Of a stretch of 64,000 nt of DNA, positions 8,418 through 14,027 are shown piece by piece. Below the pieces are notes generated by a model. It ran no database searches and was not told where the DNA came from. It worked only from the letters and a program-made list of their open reading frames with translations. Numbering within the stretch: the stretch's first letter is position 1; each line of letters starts with the position of its first letter. Origin of the DNA: Betaproteobacteria bacterium (GTDB lineage: Bacteria > Pseudomonadota > Gammaproteobacteria > Burkholderiales > SG8-41); contig JAQBFV010000189.1 in NCBI GenBank assembly GCA_032123035.1, positions 243-64,242 of the forward strand, read 5' to 3'. Made by a program: the position numbers and the translations under genes.

Positions 8418-11400
8418 TCAGCCGAGCCGCTGCAGCTGCTCGTCCACCTTCTCGAGCGTCGCCATGGAGCGGGCGAGCCGCTCCTTTTCCTGAGCCACGA
8501 TGAGCGGGGGCGCGCGTTCGACGAAGCTCGGGTTGTCGAGTTTGCTCCGGGCCTTGTTGATTTCCACCTCCAGCCGCCCGCGCTCTTTGTCGAGCCGCGC
8601 ACGCTCATTTTCCAGATCGATCTCAATCTTGAGCATCAGCCGGTAATCGCCCACGATCGACACCGGCGAATCGATCTGCGGCAGCTCGCGCTCGGTAATC
8701 ATGACCTCGGAGAGGCGCGCCAGCGCCGTGAGATAGGGGGCAAACTGAACGAACGGCTGGCGCCGGCCCTGGACGAGAAGTGGCAGGCGCTCCCCGGGGC
8801 CAATGCCCATGTCACTGCGAAGCGCCCGGCAGGCATTGACGAGATCCTTCAGCATCGCGATCTGCCGCTCGGCGGCCTCGTCGCAGCGCTCCGGCTGGGT
8901 TTGCGGATAGGACTGCGTCATGATCGAAGGTCCGGACTTGCCGGCGAGGGTGGCCACCTTCTGCCAGAGCTCTTCCGTGATGAACGGGATCACGGGGTGC
9001 GCGAGACGCAAGGTCGTCTCCAGCACGCGCACCAGCGTGCGACGCGTTCCCCGCTGCTCCTCCTCGCTGCCGCTGGCGAGCTGCACCTTGGCGAGTTCGA
9101 CATACCAGTCGCAGTACTCGTCCCAGACGAAGCGGTAGACCGCGCTCGCCACGTTGTCCAGCCGGTATTCCTCAAAGCCTCGAGCGACCGCGGCTTCCGT
9201 GCGCTGGAGTTGACTCACGATCCAACGGTCTGCCGGCGAGAGCTCGACGGGGAGCTTCTCGTCCAGCCCGACGTCCCGGCCGGCGCAGTTCATCAGCACG
9301 AAACGGCTGGCATTCCATAGCTTGTTGCAGAAGTTGCCGTAGCCCTCGCAGCGCTTGAAGTCGAAATTGACGTTCCGGCCGAGCGTAGCATAGGCGGCCA
9401 TGGAGAAGCGCAGAGCATCAGCGCCATAAGCCGGGATCCCCTGCGGAAACTCCTTCCGCGTGCGCTCGACGATGCCCGGCGCATCCTCCGGCTTGCGCAA
9501 TCCCGTAGCGCGCTTCTCGAGGAGCAAGGGCAGAGTAATGCCGTCGATCAGGTCGACCGGGTCGATCGTGTTGCCTTCCGACTTCGACATTTTCTTGCCG
9601 TCAGCATCGCGCACGATGCCGTGGATGTAGACGTCGCGGAACGGCACGCGGCCCGTGAAATGGGTCGTCATCATGATCATGCGCGCGACCCAGAAGAAGA
9701 TGATCTCGTAACCGGTGACGAGCACGCTCGAAGGCAGGTAAAGGTCGTAGGCCGTCCCATCATCGCCCTGCGTCTCCGGCCAGCCCAGCGTCGAGTGGCA
9801 AACCAGCGCGGAAGAAAACCAGGTGTCCAGCACATCCGGGTCGCGCGTGAGGAGGGCACCACCGGCTTTCGCCTGTGCTTCCTCCTCGCTGCGCGCGACG
9901 TAGACGTTGCCGCGCTCGTCGTGCCAGGCGGGAATCTGGTGGCCCCACCAAAGCTGGCGCGAGATACACCAGTCCTGGATGTTCTTCATCCACTGGTTGT
10001 ACGTGTTCACCCAGTTATCAGGGTAGAACCGGACCTCGCCTTTCTCGACCACCTCGCGTGCCACCTGGGCGATGGTCTTGCCGGGATGTAGCGTGCCGGC
10101 AGGCGCGGGCTTCGTAACGGCCACGAACCACTGGTCCGTTAGCATCGGCTCGACCACCGAATCCGTGCGTCCGCAACGGGGGACCACCATCCGGTGCGGT
10201 TTGACGGACTCGAGCAGGCCGAATGCCTTGAGGTCATCCACAATCCGCCGGCGTGCCTCATAGCGGTCGAGACCGCGGTAGGTCGCGGGCAGCAGCTCTG
10301 CCGCCGATTTTCCGTAAACCCCGGCCGTGCTTCCGGGGTGACGTCCGCCCTCGAGGTCATCGAGCGGGGAGTCCTTGAGCCGGGCATTCTTCTTGAGAAT
10401 GCTGGGCGGGTAGGCCTGCGTGTAGCCCGCTGCCTTGAGTGTCTGGCCGATGATCGGGCGGTGCCGCAACCATATGTCGAAATCGTTGAAGTCGTGGGCG
10501 GGCGTGATCTTCAGGCAACCCGTGCCGAATTCCTTGTCTACGTACTCGTCGCCAATAACCGGGATTTCGCGCTCTGCGAGCGGCAGCACGACCATCTTGC
10601 CGATGAGCCCGCGATAGCGTTCGTCGCCGGGATTCACTGCAACGGCGACGTCGCCGAGCATCGTCTCGGGGCGGGTAGTTGCAACGGTGACATGGCCGCT
10701 GCCGTCCTTGAGCGGGTAGCGAATATGCCAGAGATTGCCGTCCTCCTCCTGGCTTTCGACCTCGAGATCGGAGACGGCGGTGAGCAGGACGGGATCCCAG
10801 TTGACGAGCCGCTTGCCGCGATAGATGAGGCCCTGCTCGTAGAGGCGCACGAACGTTTCAGTCACGACGCCCGAGAACTTCTCGTCCATCGTGAAGTACT
10901 CCCGCTCCCAGTCACACGAGGCGCCCAGCCGGCGCATCTGCTGGGTGATGGTGGAGCCGGACTGCTGTTTCCACTCCCACACCTTGTCGATGAATTTGTC
11001 GCGCCCGAGCGCCTCGCGAGAGGTTCCCTGCTGCTCCAGCTGGCGCTCCACCACGATTTGCGTTGCGATGCCGGCATGATCGGTGCCGGGCAGCCATAGC
11101 GTGTTGAAACCGCGCATGCGGTGATATCGGGTCAGCGCGTCCATGATAGTCTGGTTGAACGCGTGGCCCATGTGCAGCACGCCCGTGACGTTCGGCGGCG
11201 GCAATTGAATGCAGAAACGGTCGTTTTTGTCCGGATTGAGACCGGCTTTGAAATAGCCGTTCTCGTCCCAGAAGGAGTACCAGCGCGCCTCAATCGCTGC
11301 CGGCTCAAAACTCTTGGCGAGCTCCATCTCGGGAGGGAAGGGGCGGCTTCCGGGAAAAGCGGGAATTATACTGGAGGCAGGCAGCGCGGCTTCCGGCTCA

Positions 11401-11927
11401 GCCGGCTTCCCGCCGGCGTCTTTTTCGTCGAGCGACAGACGCAGGGTCTGCAGCCGGGCGCCCAGCGTTTCCTCGATCGAGGTGCGCACCATGTGGTTGA
11501 TGTCGGCCTTCATGTTTTGCGTGACCTTCTGCAGGGCCGTATCGAGAGCGCCACCAATATCGGGCATGACGCGCTCCCGCATCACTTCCACGATCCGCTC
11601 GTCGAGGTCGCGCTTGAGCTTCTGGTAGACGCTGTGTTCGAGGTTTTGCACCTGCACGCGCGACACGACGTTCGCCGAATCGGGCGATGGCTCAGCCGCT
11701 GGCGGAACGGCCGGGCGCCCCATGACGGGAGGATCCTCGATAATGATCTCGGTCAGCGTCGGGACGTCGGATATCCCGCCGGTATCGTTCGCCTCCGTCG
11801 GCGTCGATATCCCGGACGTTTCCGCTGCGGTCTGCGCGGTATTTGCGCCGCGGTGTCGCGCAAGCAAGGCGTCGGCCCGTTCCAGGAGCTCGTCGCCATC
11901 GTCTTTGCGGGTGGGTTCCTCAGCCAT
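8418..11927 (-). CDS. valS: valine--tRNA ligase carried in a 1169-codon ORF; the canonical ValS starts at Met201 (11327) and is preceded by a 200-aa in-frame extension
   Basis: The class I HIGH motif reads HMGH and KMSKS is present. The canonical N-terminus is [26 protein letters not shown], and a C-terminal coiled coil is present. No stop codon lies between 11927 and 11327, and the extension has coding-like GC3. Confidence 0.9.
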
Positions 11928-11937
11928 CAGCGTTCCG

Positions 11938-12055
11938 AATGCGCAATGCTGAATGATAAATGGATCCGTACCTGCCGCGCCCGGTGTGCGGGCGTTGACC
12001 GCTTTTCGCTAAGCACTAAACATTGAACATTAAACATTGAACATTAAACATTGGT
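11938..12055. repeat. inverted heptad arrays AATGNNN x4 (11938-11965) and CATTRAA-type x6 (12014-12055)
   Basis: The AATG/CATT tetranucleotide recurs at an exact 7-nt period. The holC TAA stop (12044) lies inside the right array. The left array ends 11 nt before ATG 11927. Confidence 0.8.
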
Positions 12056-12472
12056 CTTGCTCAGGTCGTGCGTGCGGATCTCGTAGCCGCGGTCGCGGTA
12101 GAAGCGAAAGCGCTCGCGGGCCTGTGCGCGATCGGCCTCGTCGAGGCCGACGATCTCGACCAGCCGCTGGAAGCGGCTGAAAAACGCAGGCCACTCCGGA
12201 CGCAAGTTGAGCAGCACATGGTCATTGAGCAGATTCTCGCCCTGGTAGTCGACGATGACGGGCGTCACCGTCGCGAGTGGGTCGTCGGGCGCGCAGTGGG
12301 GAACGAATCCGATGGCCGGTGTCGTCCAAAGCATCCGGTCGAGGCGCTGTGCGGTCCCGGCATCGGCACAGAAGACCGTGACCTTGAGGCCGAGGGCGAA
12401 GGCTTTTGAGGACAGCACGCACGCCGTGCGCAACCTGTCGGGAACGTGGGTGTAGAAATCGATTTGTGTCAT
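12044..12472 (-). CDS. holC: DNA polymerase III chi subunit
   Basis: MTQIDFYTH...LWT...FVPH motifs, and the conserved position between pepA and valS. Confidence 0.85.
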   Translation of the reverse strand: MTQIDFYTHVPDRLRTACVLSSKAFALGLKVTVFCADAGTAQRLDRMLWTTPAIGFVPHCAPDDPLATVTPVIVDYQGENLLNDHVLLNLRPEWPAFFSRFQRLVEIVGLDEADRAQARERFRFYRDRGYEIRTHDLSKTNV

Positions 12473-12537
12473 TTATCGTGAATCGTAATTCGTTAAGTGC
12501 CGCTGCGGGACCAGGATTCACCATTCACGATTTACGA
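12469..12537. repeat. inverted heptad arrays TCRTNNN x4 (12469-12496) and TTYACSA x3 (12517-12537)
   Basis: TCGT/ACGA recur at a 7-nt period. The pepA TGA (12525) is inside the right array and the holC ATG (12472) is inside the left array. Confidence 0.75.
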
Positions 12538-14027
12538 CCGCCGCGCGCGCGGTTGATGAGAAACTGTGAGAGCAGCGGCACCGGCCGGCCCGTGCCGCCC
12601 TTTTCCTTGCCGCTTTTCCAGGCCGTGCCCGCGATGTCGAGGTGCGCCCACTTGTAGCTCTTGGTGAAGCGCGCCAGGAAGCAGGCCGCCGTTATGGCGC
12701 CCGCCGGGCGCCCACCGATGTTCGCGAAATCGGCGAAATTGCTCGAAAGCTGCTCCTGGTAGTCTTCCCATAGGGGCAGGCGCCAGGCACGGTCGTGCGC
12801 GGCCACGCCGGCTCCGAGCACTTCGCTTGCGAGGGTGTCATCGTTGGCGAACAAGCCGGTTGCGACGTGGCCCAGCGCGACCACGCAAGCGCCGGTGAGT
12901 GTCGCGATATCGATCACCGCCGCCGGTTTGAAGCGCTCGACGTAGGTGAGCGCATCGCACAGAATGAGGCGGCCCTCGGCGTCGGTGTTCAGGATTTCGA
13001 CGGTCTGCCCGGACAGGCTCTTCACGATGTCACCGGGCCTGGTGGCGCGTCCCCCAGGCATGTTCTCGGTGGTCGGAATGACCCCCACGACGTTCACCGG
13101 CAGGCGCATTTCCCCGACCACCTTCATCGTTCCCAGGACGCTTGCCGCGCCGCACATGTCGAATTTCATCTGGTCCATGTCGGCAGAGGGCTTGATAGAA
13201 ATCCCCCCCGTGTCGAAGGTGGTGCCCTTGCCGACGAGCGCCACCGGCCGCGCCGTCTTGGGTCCGCCGCGGTGTTCGAGCGTGATGAACTTGGGCGGTT
13301 GCGCACTCCCGCGTGCCACGGACAGCAATGCGCCCATGCCGAGCCGCTCCATGTCGGCGCGCTCCAGTACCTCGACCTTCATGCGGTAGCGCTTCGCCAA
13401 CTCTCGCGCCTGGTCCGCGAGGTACGCTGGCGTGCATACGTTGGGCGGCAGGTTGCCCAAGTCCCGCGCCAGCGCGACGCCATGCGCTACCGCAAGACCG
13501 TGCTCGAGCCCTGCGGCGGCGCGCCGCTCAGCCGTACGATCGTTGACGCTCAATACGAGCCGGCGCAAGGCGAAGTCATTGTCCTCGCGCTTGCTTTTCA
13601 TGCGGGTGAAGCGATAGGTGCATTCGCACGCAACCATGACGGCATGCGCGACCTTCCACGCAGCATCGCGTTTGCCGAGCGCAAGCTCCGTGAGATGCAA
13701 CGAGGCTTCCTCGGCCCCGGACGCGCCCAAGGCGCGGATGGCGGCCGCCACGGCGCTGCGGTACTGCTCCTCGCTGAACTGCGCTTCGCGCCCCAGTCCG
13801 ACCAACAGCACGCGATCAGCCGCGGCGCCAGGAACCTTGTGCAGGAACAGGGTCTTGCCGAGCTTACCCTGCATGTCGCCGCGCCGCAGGACGGCGCTGA
13901 GATATCCTTTCGCAGCGCGGTCGAGCACCGCACCGGCGCGGGAAAGCTTGCGCGGCTCGAACACACCCACCACCAGACAACCGTTGCGGGCGGACTGCAG
14001 CACGCCGCTTTTTATGCTAAATTCCAC
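12525..14027 (-). CDS. pepA: leucyl aminopeptidase
   Basis: NTDAEGRLILCDALTY and GKGTTFDTGGISIKP are M17 peptidase signatures. Confidence 0.95.
   Translation of the reverse strand: MEFSIKSGVLQSARNGCLVVGVFEPRKLSRAGAVLDRAAKGYLSAVLRRGDMQGKLGKTLFLHKVPGAAADRVLLVGLGREAQFSEEQYRSAVAAAIRALGASGAEEASLHLTELALGKRDAAWKVAHAVMVACECTYRFTRMKSKREDNDFALRRLVLSVNDRTAERRAAAGLEHGLAVAHGVALARDLGNLPPNVCTPAYLADQARELAKRYRMKVEVLERADMERLGMGALLSVARGSAQPPKFITLEHRGGPKTARPVALVGKGTTFDTGGISIKPSADMDQMKFDMCGAASVLGTMKVVGEMRLPVNVVGVIPTTENMPGGRATRPGDIVKSLSGQTVEILNTDAEGRLILCDALTYVERFKPAAVIDIATLTGACVVALGHVATGLFANDDTLASEVLGAGVAAHDRAWRLPLWEDYQEQLSSNFADFANIGGRPAGAITAACFLARFTKSYKWAHLDIAGTAWKSGKEKGGTGRPVPLLSQFLINRARGGRKS

What the first reader, a model, noticed from the sequence alone, without database searches (positions are those of the whole stretch)
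11328..11927. 200-codon in-frame N-terminal extension on valine--tRNA ligase
The canonical ValS N-terminus ([26 protein letters not shown]) begins at Met201, and no SD precedes it (the upstream sequence is TTCCCTCCCGAG). The ORF stays open for 600 nt upstream with coding-like third-position GC. That stretch has an acidic, low-complexity first half (..[13 protein letters not shown]..) and a predicted amphipathic helical second half ([63 protein letters not shown]). I recall that in several betaproteobacteria a separate small hypothetical gene sits between holC and valS. Here it appears fused, with no stop codon. This is either a real fusion adding a new domain to an essential synthetase, a recent loss of the stop, or a sequencing error.
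Basis: partly seen in the sequence, partly recalled or inferred. Interest (0 to 1): 0.65.

Follow-up and report, generated by a model that had tools for sequence, protein, structure and literature searches.

The report
Small holC-linked protein fused onto ValRS
The 200 extra codons in front of valine-tRNA ligase are real: a small gene of unknown function that normally sits on its own between holC and valS was fused in frame to valS long ago in a whole clade of uncultured Burkholderiales. This gives an essential enzyme a flexible module that looks built for binding other proteins.

Summary
On the minus strand, one ORF (11927..8418, 1169 aa) joins a 200-residue extension to a complete ValS.

It is not an error or a recent stop loss:
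- In 59 of 62 species-level MAG genomes that carry a close homologue of the extension, its frame reads straight into ValS.
- In 12 of 57 junctions, the ancestral ValS start codon has been replaced by a non-start codon.
- The extension is under purifying selection (dN/dS 0.19-0.32).

The extension descends from a free-standing 130-190 aa gene ("X"). X lies directly after holC, often overlapping its stop, and before valS in other Betaproteobacteria such as Rhodocyclus tenuis. It is only weakly linked to Pfam DUF2486.

Its parts are:
- a conserved N-terminal helix;
- a disordered acidic stretch carrying the family's signature motif ([DE]-Φ-P-x-L-T-[DE]-Φ-Φ);
- a roughly 90-residue helix;
- a Pro/Ser-rich linker.

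No solved structure matches it, and AlphaFold does not dock it onto the ValS core.

The most likely role is a protein-binding or tethering module, not catalysis; its partner is unknown. I rate it a new variant of a known kind, of moderate interest.

The parts
8418..11927 (-). Whole fused ORF, 1169 aa: X-derived extension plus valine--tRNA ligase
   Evidence: Full-length homologues of 1098-1210 aa are common in metagenomes.
11328..11927 (-). N-terminal extension, residues 1-200, derived from the free-standing holC-linked gene X
   Evidence: Homologues. dN/dS is 0.19-0.32. No Pfam, NCBIfam or PDB match.
11820..11927 (-). Conserved N-terminal helix, residues 1-36 (..[16 protein letters not shown]..)
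   Evidence: L15, R17, A18, A20, L21, L22, R24 and R26 are at least 90% conserved. Predicted as helix 9-36. The same motif occurs in free-standing X proteins.
11685..11819 (-). Acidic, Pro-rich, predicted-disordered stretch, residues 37-81
   Evidence: pLDDT below 50 in both models. pI is 4.05.
11742..11768 (-). Family signature short linear motif D54-VPTLTEII-62 ([DE]-Φ-P-[TVL]-L-T-[DE]-Φ-Φ)
   Evidence: P56 is invariant; L58 and T59 are at least 90% conserved. The motif occurs in 1-3 copies in most of the family members scanned. The strict regex has no hit outside X in about 590,000 background residues.
11412..11684 (-). Long amphipathic helix, residues 82-172 ([21 protein letters not shown] ... 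[10 protein letters not shown])
   Evidence: R90, V91, Q92, Q94, N95, H98, L104 and D109 are invariant. pLDDT is 92-98 when the extension is folded alone. It is still helical (residues 90-168) in the full-length model.
11328..11411 (-). Pro/Ser/Ala-rich linker, residues 173-200. It corresponds to the former X tail plus the former X-valS spacer, and contains a second conserved motif, I187-IPAF-191 (11355..11369).
   Evidence: IIPAF / IMPAFS / IMPDFS recurs 10-15 residues before the junction in relatives. pLDDT is below 50 in the full-length model and 50-57 when the extension is folded alone.
11325..11327 (-). Ancestral valS start codon (ATG, Met201), now internal
   Evidence: Of 57 fused junctions, 44 keep ATG, 1 has GTG and 12 have non-start codons.
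8418..11324 (-). Canonical ValS body after Met201 (HMGH at residues 252-255, KMSKS at 779-783, CP1 editing domain, anticodon-binding domain, C-terminal coiled coil) and stop codon
11928..12043 (-). holC-to-X spacer (116 nt). It contains tandem heptamers that overlap the holC stop codon.
12044..12472 (-). holC (DNA polymerase III chi subunit), the invariable upstream neighbour of X
   Evidence: PF04364, E = 2e-38. holC is found just upstream of X in all 73 loci held at that point.

Best explanation
The feature is an ancient in-frame gene fusion. In many Betaproteobacteria the order is pepA-holC-X-valS. X is a free-standing acidic protein of about 130-190 aa and unknown function. Its start often overlaps or abuts the holC stop. 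In one clade of uncultured Burkholderiales, which includes this window's organism, the X stop codon and the X-valS spacer became coding sequence. X is therefore now residues 1-200 of ValRS.

Shown:
- The frame is continuous here and in 59 of 62 related genomes.
- The extension evolves under purifying selection.
- In 12 lineages the old valS start codon is gone, so ValRS can only be made as the fusion there.

Inferred:
- In this window the main product is also the 1169-aa protein.
- The extension does not take part in aminoacylation. It is a flexible protein-protein interaction module: an N-terminal helix, a short linear docking motif in a disordered acidic stretch, a helix of about 90 residues that probably pairs or oligomerises, and a second motif in a Pro-rich linker.
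- This module keeps X's original binding function and so ties ValRS to X's partner.

The partner is not identified. Gene order points to chi (HolC), and the fusion itself points to ValRS.
For: - Continuous ORF with a complete ValS.
- 26 close protein homologues; 13 read through into LAKSFEP.
- 62 GTDB species genomes, all uncultured Betaproteobacteria/Burkholderiales MAGs; in 59 the extension frame reaches HMGH or KMSKS.
- Junction codons: 44 ATG, 1 GTG, 12 non-start (ACG, GCG, AGG, CCA, CCG).
- dN/dS of the extension is 0.19-0.32, against 0.09-0.18 for the core.
- 62-64 of the 120 best ValS hits are fused, at 1098-1210 aa.
- Free-standing X sits between holC and valS in L067, L069, L072 (Rhodocyclus tenuis), L073 and L155; in L071 X follows holC and the next gene runs off the contig. 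In L063, X stays with holC while valS is elsewhere.
- The gap from the holC stop to the X start is -8 to +18 nt in about half of the loci.
- Architecture and motif conservation.
- AlphaFold models: helix, disordered stretch, long helix, disordered linker, with no gain in confidence for the extension in the full-length model.
Against: - There are no expression data, so the size of the protein made in the cell is unknown.
- The window keeps ATG at Met201, and free-standing valS genes of relatives are also SD-less. A second, shorter ValRS isoform from internal initiation therefore cannot be excluded here.
- One fused-clade contig (L074) carries an in-frame TGA in the linker, so a split form may be viable.
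- Nothing identifies a binding partner: no domain, PDB or Foldseek match, and the full-length model is of only moderate quality (pTM 0.52).
- Fusion of adjacent operon genes can be nearly neutral, so the fusion alone does not prove a functional link to ValRS.
- I could not check whether these genomes hold a second, unfused valS.
Confidence: 0.8

Rival explanations
1. One ORF yields two proteins. Translation would start both at Met1 and at the retained Met201, or the linker would be cleaved. The cell would then still have a free X-like protein or a canonical ValRS, and the fusion would be mostly formal.
For: ATG is kept at the ancestral start in 44 of 57 junctions, including the window. Free-standing valS genes of relatives start without an SD from the same kind of C-rich leader, so that leader may support initiation. 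The linker is predicted to be disordered and exposed. L074 has an in-frame TGA in the linker, followed by an intact MELAKSFEP start.
Against: Twelve junctions have no start codon at or next to the ancestral position, so internal initiation is not required for viability in the clade. Internal initiation would not produce free X. The linker carries a conserved motif (IIPAF/IMPAFS) rather than decaying. No sigma-70-like promoter lies in 11200-12600.
Confidence: 0.15
2. Artefact or very recent event: a sequencing or assembly error, or a recent point mutation, removed the stop between a small gene and valS in this genome only.
For: None beyond the prior expectation that a bacterial ValS starts at MELAKSFEP. 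Some public annotations do start ValS there on contigs where the frame is open upstream (P0275 and P0357).
Against: The same continuous frame is found in 59 of 62 independent species-level MAGs from many studies, with 36-95% identity in the extension. Dozens of metagenome proteins show it too. The ancestral start has been lost in 12 lineages, and dN/dS is well below 1.
Confidence: 0.01
3. X is a partner of the chi subunit (HolC): either a divergent equivalent of psi or a mimic of the SSB tail. On this view the fusion to ValRS is a by-product of gene adjacency, or it physically links ValRS to the replisome.
For: holC lies immediately upstream of X in every locus examined, and the two often overlap by 1-8 nt. 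X stays with holC when valS is elsewhere (L063). X has a conserved N-terminal helix followed by a flexible region, as psi does (PMC3197488). The X signature motif fits E. coli psi residues 44-50, DLPALTD, and the strict regex has 0 hits in about 590,000 background residues. Many copies are preceded by DD/DDD, like the SSB tail DDDIPF (the SSB tail sequence is from my own knowledge). Psi cannot be found in several genomes that have chi with a conserved psi-binding site (PMC3197488).
Against: hhalign of the X profile against psi is not significant (probability 0.7%, E = 0.078). There is no Pfam DNA_III_psi hit. X is predicted to be helical plus disordered, whereas psi has an alpha/beta fold. I could not establish whether psi residues 44-50 touch chi. 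L156 has holC-valS without X. Tying a 110-kDa synthetase to a replisome adaptor is hard to rationalise.
Confidence: 0.12
4. The extension is translated but functionless: a neutral read-through of a decaying gene.
For: About 40% of it is predicted to be disordered and varies in length. Its dN/dS is higher than that of the core.
Against: Nine columns are invariant and 22 are at least 90% conserved among the 26 sequences of the extension alignment. Those sequences are 42-81% identical to the window's extension. The same three elements are kept in free-standing homologues that share only 20-39% identity. dN/dS is 0.1-0.3 in the long helix.
Confidence: 0.03

Closest known systems
Free-standing hypothetical proteins encoded between holC and valS in Betaproteobacteria (Rhodocyclus tenuis, Azonexus, Dechloromonas, Iodobacter, Burkholderiales MAGs), loosely linked to Pfam DUF2486 (PF10667)
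   Same: They share the three-part architecture: an N-terminal LLxRADALLxRHR helix, a Φ-P-x-L-T-[DE]-Φ-Φ motif in 1-3 copies, and a C-terminal long helix. They also occupy the same place directly after holC.
   Different: They end with a stop codon 30-170 nt before valS, whereas here there is none. The window's extension does not match PF10667. Only 2 of 30 relatives do, and weakly (best E = 0.001). No function is known for any of them.
Appended N-terminal domains of eukaryotic aminoacyl-tRNA synthetases: the helical or leucine-zipper N-termini of LysRS, ArgRS and LeuRS that build the multisynthetase complex, and the GST-like N-terminal extension of cytosolic ValRS that binds EF-1H
   Same: In both cases a non-catalytic, partly helical N-terminal appendage on a class I synthetase is joined by a flexible linker and used for protein-protein contacts. 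Source: PMC7373986 for the multisynthetase complex; the ValRS-EF-1H case is from my own knowledge.
   Different: There is no sequence or fold relation and no GST domain. This example is bacterial. Its origin is traceable to fusion with the neighbouring gene, and its partner is unknown.
Psi subunit of DNA polymerase III (HolD)
   Same: Both are small proteins tied to chi, with a conserved N-terminal helix followed by a flexible segment. E. coli psi carries DLPALTD, which fits the X motif. Psi is known to be highly divergent and missing from annotation in many chi-containing genomes (PMC3197488, PMC8879598).
   Different: There is no significant profile similarity. The predicted fold differs. 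holD is not next to holC in E. coli or Pseudomonas (own knowledge). Binding to chi or to the clamp loader is untested.
E. coli-type pepA-holC-valS gene order
   Same: The flanking genes and their order are the same, including the divergent lptF-lptG pair (the E. coli order is from my own knowledge). One close relative of the window's lineage, L156, also has holC directly followed by valS.
   Different: That arrangement has no X gene, and its ValS is about 930-950 aa long.

Membership tests
Valine--tRNA ligase (class Ia, bacterial type) | Score above the curated cut-off of the equivalog model | tested here: met
   NF004349 scores 1208 bits (cut-off 704) and TIGR00422 scores 1047 bits (cut-off 612), covering residues 204-1165.
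Valine--tRNA ligase (class Ia, bacterial type) | HIGH and KMSKS signature motifs, the CP1 editing insertion, the anticodon-binding domain and the C-terminal coiled coil | tested here: met
   HMGH lies at residues 252-255 and KMSKS at 779-783. PF00133, PF13603, PF08264 and PF10458 are all present.
Valine--tRNA ligase (class Ia, bacterial type) | Aminoacylation activity of the full-length fused protein | not testable with these tools
   Inferred only. In 12 lineages no start codon remains at the ancestral position, so the fused form should be the active enzyme there, unless a second valS exists.
holC-linked X family (defined here) | N-terminal helix motif [LV]LxRA[DE]ALLxRHR | tested here: met
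   Residues 14-26, [13 protein letters not shown]; at least 90% conserved in alignment A1 and present in A2.
holC-linked X family (defined here) | At least one [DE]-Φ-P-[TVL]-L-T-[DE]-Φ-Φ motif in a disordered stretch | tested here: met
   D54-VPTLTEII-62. P56 is invariant, and L58 and T59 are at least 90% conserved in A1 and invariant in A2.
holC-linked X family (defined here) | C-terminal long amphipathic helix that matches the family profile | tested here: met
   The profile built from A1 finds 286 cluster representatives at E <= 1e-3, and free-standing members align over profile positions of about 7-160. The helix is predicted at residues 82-172.
holC-linked X family (defined here) | Encoded immediately downstream of holC | tested here: met
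   holC ends 116 nt upstream in the window. holC is found just upstream of X in all 73 loci held at that point.
Pfam DUF2486 (PF10667) | Match to the family HMM at the gathering threshold | tested here: not met
   The extension has no PF10667 hit even at E <= 10. Two of 30 relatives hit weakly (best E = 0.00096). A few distant relatives carry a precomputed PF10667 tag or a UniRef 'DUF2486' name. I treat X as a neighbouring family that this model does not cover.
DNA polymerase III psi subunit (HolD, PF03603) | Sequence or profile similarity to psi | tested here: not met
   No Pfam hit. hhalign of A2 against E. coli psi gives probability 0.7% and E = 0.078, covering only the motif region.
DNA polymerase III psi subunit (HolD, PF03603) | Binds chi and the clamp-loader collar | not testable with these tools
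   Only gene adjacency and overlap with holC are available.
Eukaryote-type ValRS with a GST-like N-terminal extension | GST-C fold in the extension | tested here: not met
   No GST family appears in Pfam. The model is helix, coil, helix. Foldseek against the PDB returned no match.

The most novel reading that the evidence does not exclude
X is the chi-binding adaptor that Betaproteobacteria are missing: a functional counterpart of psi, which cannot be found in many genomes that have chi. Its conserved N-terminal helix would bind the clamp loader, and its D-Φ-P-x-L-T-D motif, shared with E. coli psi 44-DLPALTD-50, would bind chi. In this clade the adaptor is covalently joined to ValRS, so an aminoacyl-tRNA synthetase would be physically coupled to the replisome/SSB hub.
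Probability: 0.1. Interest if true: 0.85.

Novelty: new variant of a known kind. Interest (0 to 1): 0.5.

Why it matters
Large appended domains are uncommon on bacterial aminoacyl-tRNA synthetases (own knowledge). Here an essential synthetase carries a 200-residue interaction module whose origin can be read directly from gene order, and the fusion has been kept across at least 59 species-level lineages.

The finding has three uses:
- **Function of X.** It provides a natural experiment on an uncharacterised protein family that travels with holC and valS across Betaproteobacteria. The fusion and the tight coupling to holC nominate ValRS and chi as candidate partners.
- **Annotation.** Some NCBI records start these ValS proteins at the internal Met and lose the domain.
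- **Replisome question.** If X proves to be a chi partner, it would bear on the old question of where psi is in chi-containing bacteria that lack a recognisable holD.

Tried and rejected
**Searches that gave no significant match**
- Pfam and NCBIfam scans of the extension and of 30 or more relatives gave only noise-level hits: DUF6403, arcadin-2, DUF445, Portal_Mu.
- The PDB sequence-profile search had a best E-value of 0.13.
- Foldseek of the extension model against the PDB gave zero matches.

**Structure prediction**
- The full-length AlphaFold run was meant to show whether the motif or the helices dock onto the ValS body. The extension's confidence fell instead of rising, so docking is not supported. 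The model is only moderate (pTM 0.52).
- I prepared a HolC-linker-X paired alignment for a pseudo-complex prediction but did not submit it.

**Database scans and literature**
- The metagenome scan with E. coli psi was meant to show how well DLPALTD is conserved among psi proteins. It returned only E. coli-like sequences (85-100% identity) and was uninformative.
- Literature searches found nothing relevant for PA3833, DUF2486, a bacterial ValRS N-terminal extension, or the distribution of psi in Betaproteobacteria. The one useful statement was that psi is missing from several chi-containing genomes.
- I could not retrieve the chi:psi crystal-structure paper.

**Ideas dropped or left open**
- Missing SD as evidence for fusion: rejected.
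- tRNA-binding role: judged unlikely because the extension is acidic (pI 4.7).
- Internal promoter: none found by the consensus scan.
- Single origin of the fusion: a neighbour-joining tree of ValS cores is compatible with one origin but does not resolve it without an outgroup.
Full report

The gene lies on the minus strand. A single ORF runs from the ATG at 11927 to the stop at 8418 and encodes 1169 aa.

The curated valine--tRNA ligase models match only residues 204-1165: NF004349 scores 1208 bits against a cut-off of 704. The Pfam catalytic, anticodon-binding and C-terminal arm domains all begin after residue 216. Residues 1-200 (11927..11328) match no Pfam or NCBIfam family.

Met201 (11327..11325) opens the canonical [17 protein letters not shown]. 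The preceding bases are CCCTTCCCTCCCGAG, with no Shine-Dalgarno-like purine run.

The extension has coding-like composition. Its GC3 is 0.775, against 0.829 in the core and 0.818 in holC. It is acidic (pI 4.7). From base composition alone, 200 open codons would occur with probability of about 0.004.

The upstream genes on the same strand are holC (12044..12472) and pepA (12525..14027). lptF and lptG diverge on the other strand.

**2. Error, recent accident or real fusion?**

A protein search with residues 1-200 found 26 relatives, all from metagenomic Burkholderiales or Betaproteobacteria. Thirteen of them read through into the ValS N-terminus.

A scan of one genome per GTDB species, using an alignment of the extension (A1), returned 62 loci. 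All are from uncultured Betaproteobacteria/Burkholderiales MAGs. The closest is JAOTTL01, at 95% identity, followed by SG8_41 at 76%.
- In 59 of the 62 loci, the frame that encodes the extension continues without a stop into HMGH, and into KMSKS where the contig is long enough.
- Two loci run off the contig end before reaching ValS.
- One locus (L061) shows frame disruptions.

Among 57 readable junctions, the ancestral valS start codon is ATG in 44, GTG in 1, and a non-start codon in 12 (ACG x5, GCG x4, AGG, CCA, CCG). In those 12 lineages ValRS can only be translated from the upstream start.

Pairwise dN/dS between the window and L001, L002 and L003 is 0.19-0.32 for the extension, and 0.10-0.30 for its long helix. 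The ValS core gives 0.09-0.18.

A search with the whole ORF shows that 62-64 of the 120 best ValS hits are fused proteins of 1098-1210 aa.

A sequencing error or a recent stop loss is therefore excluded.

**3. Where did the extension come from?**

A profile of the extension, searched against 1.84 billion cluster representatives, found 286 proteins at E <= 1e-3. Many are complete free-standing proteins of 130-190 aa, and a subgroup reaches 230-395 aa. All share the same layout.

Their genomic contexts were as follows.

| Locus | Arrangement |
|---|---|
| L067, L069, L072 (Rhodocyclus tenuis), L073, L155 | lptG-lptF <> pepA-holC-X-valS, with X ending 30-170 nt before a valS of 927-953 aa |
| L071 | pepA-holC-X, then a gene that runs off the contig end |
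| L063 | pepA-holC-X; valS lies elsewhere |
| L156 | holC-valS with no X, as in E. coli |

holC is found just upstream of X in all 73 loci held at that point. The gap between the holC stop and the X start is -8 to +18 nt in about half of them, which suggests translational coupling.

The window's clade has turned the X stop codon and the X-valS spacer into a translated linker.

A neighbour-joining tree of ValS cores places the unfused relatives on one branch. That is compatible with a single fusion event but is not resolved without an outgroup.

**4. Anatomy of the extension**

| Residues | Element | Evidence |
|---|---|---|
| 1-36 | Conserved helix, [14 protein letters not shown] | At least 90% conserved positions; predicted helix 9-36 |
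| 37-81 | Acidic, Pro-rich stretch, pLDDT below 50 | Holds D54-VPTLTEII-62 |
| 82-172 | One long amphipathic helix | Invariant R90, V91, Q92, Q94, N95, H98, L104, D109; pLDDT 92-98 when folded alone |
| 173-200 | Pro/Ser/Ala-rich linker | Second recurrent motif, IIPAF here and IMPAFS or IMPDFS in relatives |

The motif at residues 54-62 is the family's signature, [DE]-Φ-P-[TVL]-L-T-[DE]-Φ-Φ. It occurs in 1-3 copies in most of the family members scanned. It is absent from about 590,000 residues of background ORFs taken from the same loci.

**5. One polypeptide or two?**

The window keeps ATG at Met201. However, free-standing valS genes in relatives (L067, L069, L072, L073) start from the same kind of C-rich, SD-less leader. 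The X start itself also has no clear SD. The SD argument therefore carries no weight, and a minor isoform started at Met201 cannot be excluded in the 44 ATG-retaining lineages.

Three points argue that such an isoform is not essential:
- Twelve lineages have lost the codon.
- The linker motif is conserved.
- No promoter-like site lies in 11200-12600.

One fused-clade metagenome contig (L074) has a single in-frame TGA in the linker, with the linker motif and MELAKSFEP intact downstream. It is either an error or a secondary split. On the ValS tree it nests inside the fused group (P0272).

**6. What does the extension do?**

Nothing known matches it:
- Pfam, NCBIfam, the PDB profile search and Foldseek gave no significant match.
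- The link to DUF2486 is weak. Two of 30 relatives hit it, with a best E-value of 0.001. A few distant relatives carry a precomputed tag or a UniRef name.

In a full-length AlphaFold model built from 68 sequences, the extension keeps its helices but its confidence drops (pLDDT 25-74). The motif region stays below 35. No docking onto the ValS body is therefore predicted, although the model is only moderate (pTM 0.52).

The acidic charge argues against tRNA binding. Conserved short motifs in disordered sequence, combined with long helices, are typical of docking and oligomerisation modules.

My best-supported reading is inferred, not shown. The extension is a non-catalytic protein-interaction module that keeps X's original binding activity and is now tethered to ValRS.

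Two candidate partners follow from the genomics:
- **Chi (HolC).** X is always adjacent to holC and often overlaps it, and it stays with holC when valS moves away.
- **ValRS itself.** The two genes are adjacent, and the fusion has been stably kept.

**7. A speculative lead**

The literature states that psi cannot be found in several genomes whose chi has a conserved psi-binding site (PMC3197488). It also states that Pseudomonas psi is undetectable by homology search (PMC8879598).

E. coli psi contains 44-DLPALTD-50, which fits the X motif. Like X, psi has a conserved N-terminal helix followed by a flexible segment. Many X motifs are preceded by DD or DDD, which recalls the SSB tail DDDIPF that chi binds (the tail sequence is from my own knowledge).

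Against this, the profile-profile comparison is not significant (probability 0.7%), the predicted folds differ, and I could not establish whether psi residues 44-50 contact chi. I rate this reading at about 10%.

**8. Comparison with what is known, and novelty**

The ValS part is an ordinary bacterial ValRS, and all membership tests were met.

The extension belongs to an uncharacterised holC-linked family. It does not meet the DUF2486 model, is not psi by sequence, and is unrelated to the GST-like extension of eukaryotic ValRS.

In function it most resembles the helical N-terminal appendages that eukaryotic synthetases use for complex assembly (PMC7373986). I found no paper describing this bacterial fusion.

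It is a new variant of a known kind: a synthetase with an appended interaction domain, formed by fusion with its operon neighbour. Interest is moderate. It would be higher if the partner proves to be chi.

**9. Caveats**
- There are no expression data.
- I could not test whether these genomes hold a second valS or a holD.
- Most relatives are MAGs.
- The mechanism is inferred from sequence features only.

Noticed in passing
window 11928-12058 (minus strand; heptamer array 12017-12053); also L004, L005, L006, L012, L015, L029, L040, L042, L053 between holC and the X start: The holC-to-X spacer is built from tandem heptamers. The 5' arm begins in the last holC codons, and the 3' arm is its reverse complement, so the spacer can form a long hairpin that ends 8-25 nt before the X start codon. 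The heptamer sequence changes between species but the pairing is kept: TGTTGAG/CTCAACA, CAGTGAA/TTCACYG, GCAGTAAG/CTTACTGC, CTGGTGAC/GTCACCAG. The folding-energy z-score is -2.8 to -4.9 in 10 of 16 spacers, but only -0.4 in the window itself. There is no Rfam match. Its role is unknown.
   Followed up: partly
L074:400-1200 (JGI metagenome contig; proteins P0002 and P0272): A member of the fused clade has one in-frame TGA in the linker (..[32 protein letters not shown]). X and ValS are therefore called as two genes in the same frame. This is either a sequencing error or a secondary split of the fusion.
   Followed up: partly
L005 and L011 (NCBI MAG contigs JACPEF010000069, JACOVL010000092); proteins P0275 and P0357: NCBI-named 'valine--tRNA ligase' proteins from these contigs start at MELAKSFEP (1014 and 965 aa), although the frame is open upstream and encodes X. 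JGI gene calls for relatives give 1100-1210 aa. Public annotation of this clade is inconsistent and often drops the domain.
   Followed up: yes
E. coli psi (HolD) residues 44-50, compared with window residues 54-60 (11748-11768): E. coli psi contains DLPALTD, which fits the X-family motif [DE][ILVF]P[TVLA]LT[DE]. That regex has no hit outside X in about 590,000 background residues. The hhalign comparison is not significant.
   Followed up: partly
L061, L042, L050, L006 (several from long-read MFD MAGs): The fused ORF is cut short inside ValS, or shifted in frame, in a few MAGs (ORFs of 354-1011 aa). This looks like indel errors in the assemblies rather than biology. These loci were not used for the junction statistics beyond what is stated.
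   Followed up: no
L156:2496-3001 and L155:2113-3001: Close unfused relatives differ from one another. L156 has holC followed directly by valS with no X gene. L155 has holC, then X (134 aa, overlapping holC by 8 nt), then valS. X has therefore been lost as well as fused within this part of the Burkholderiales.
   Followed up: partly
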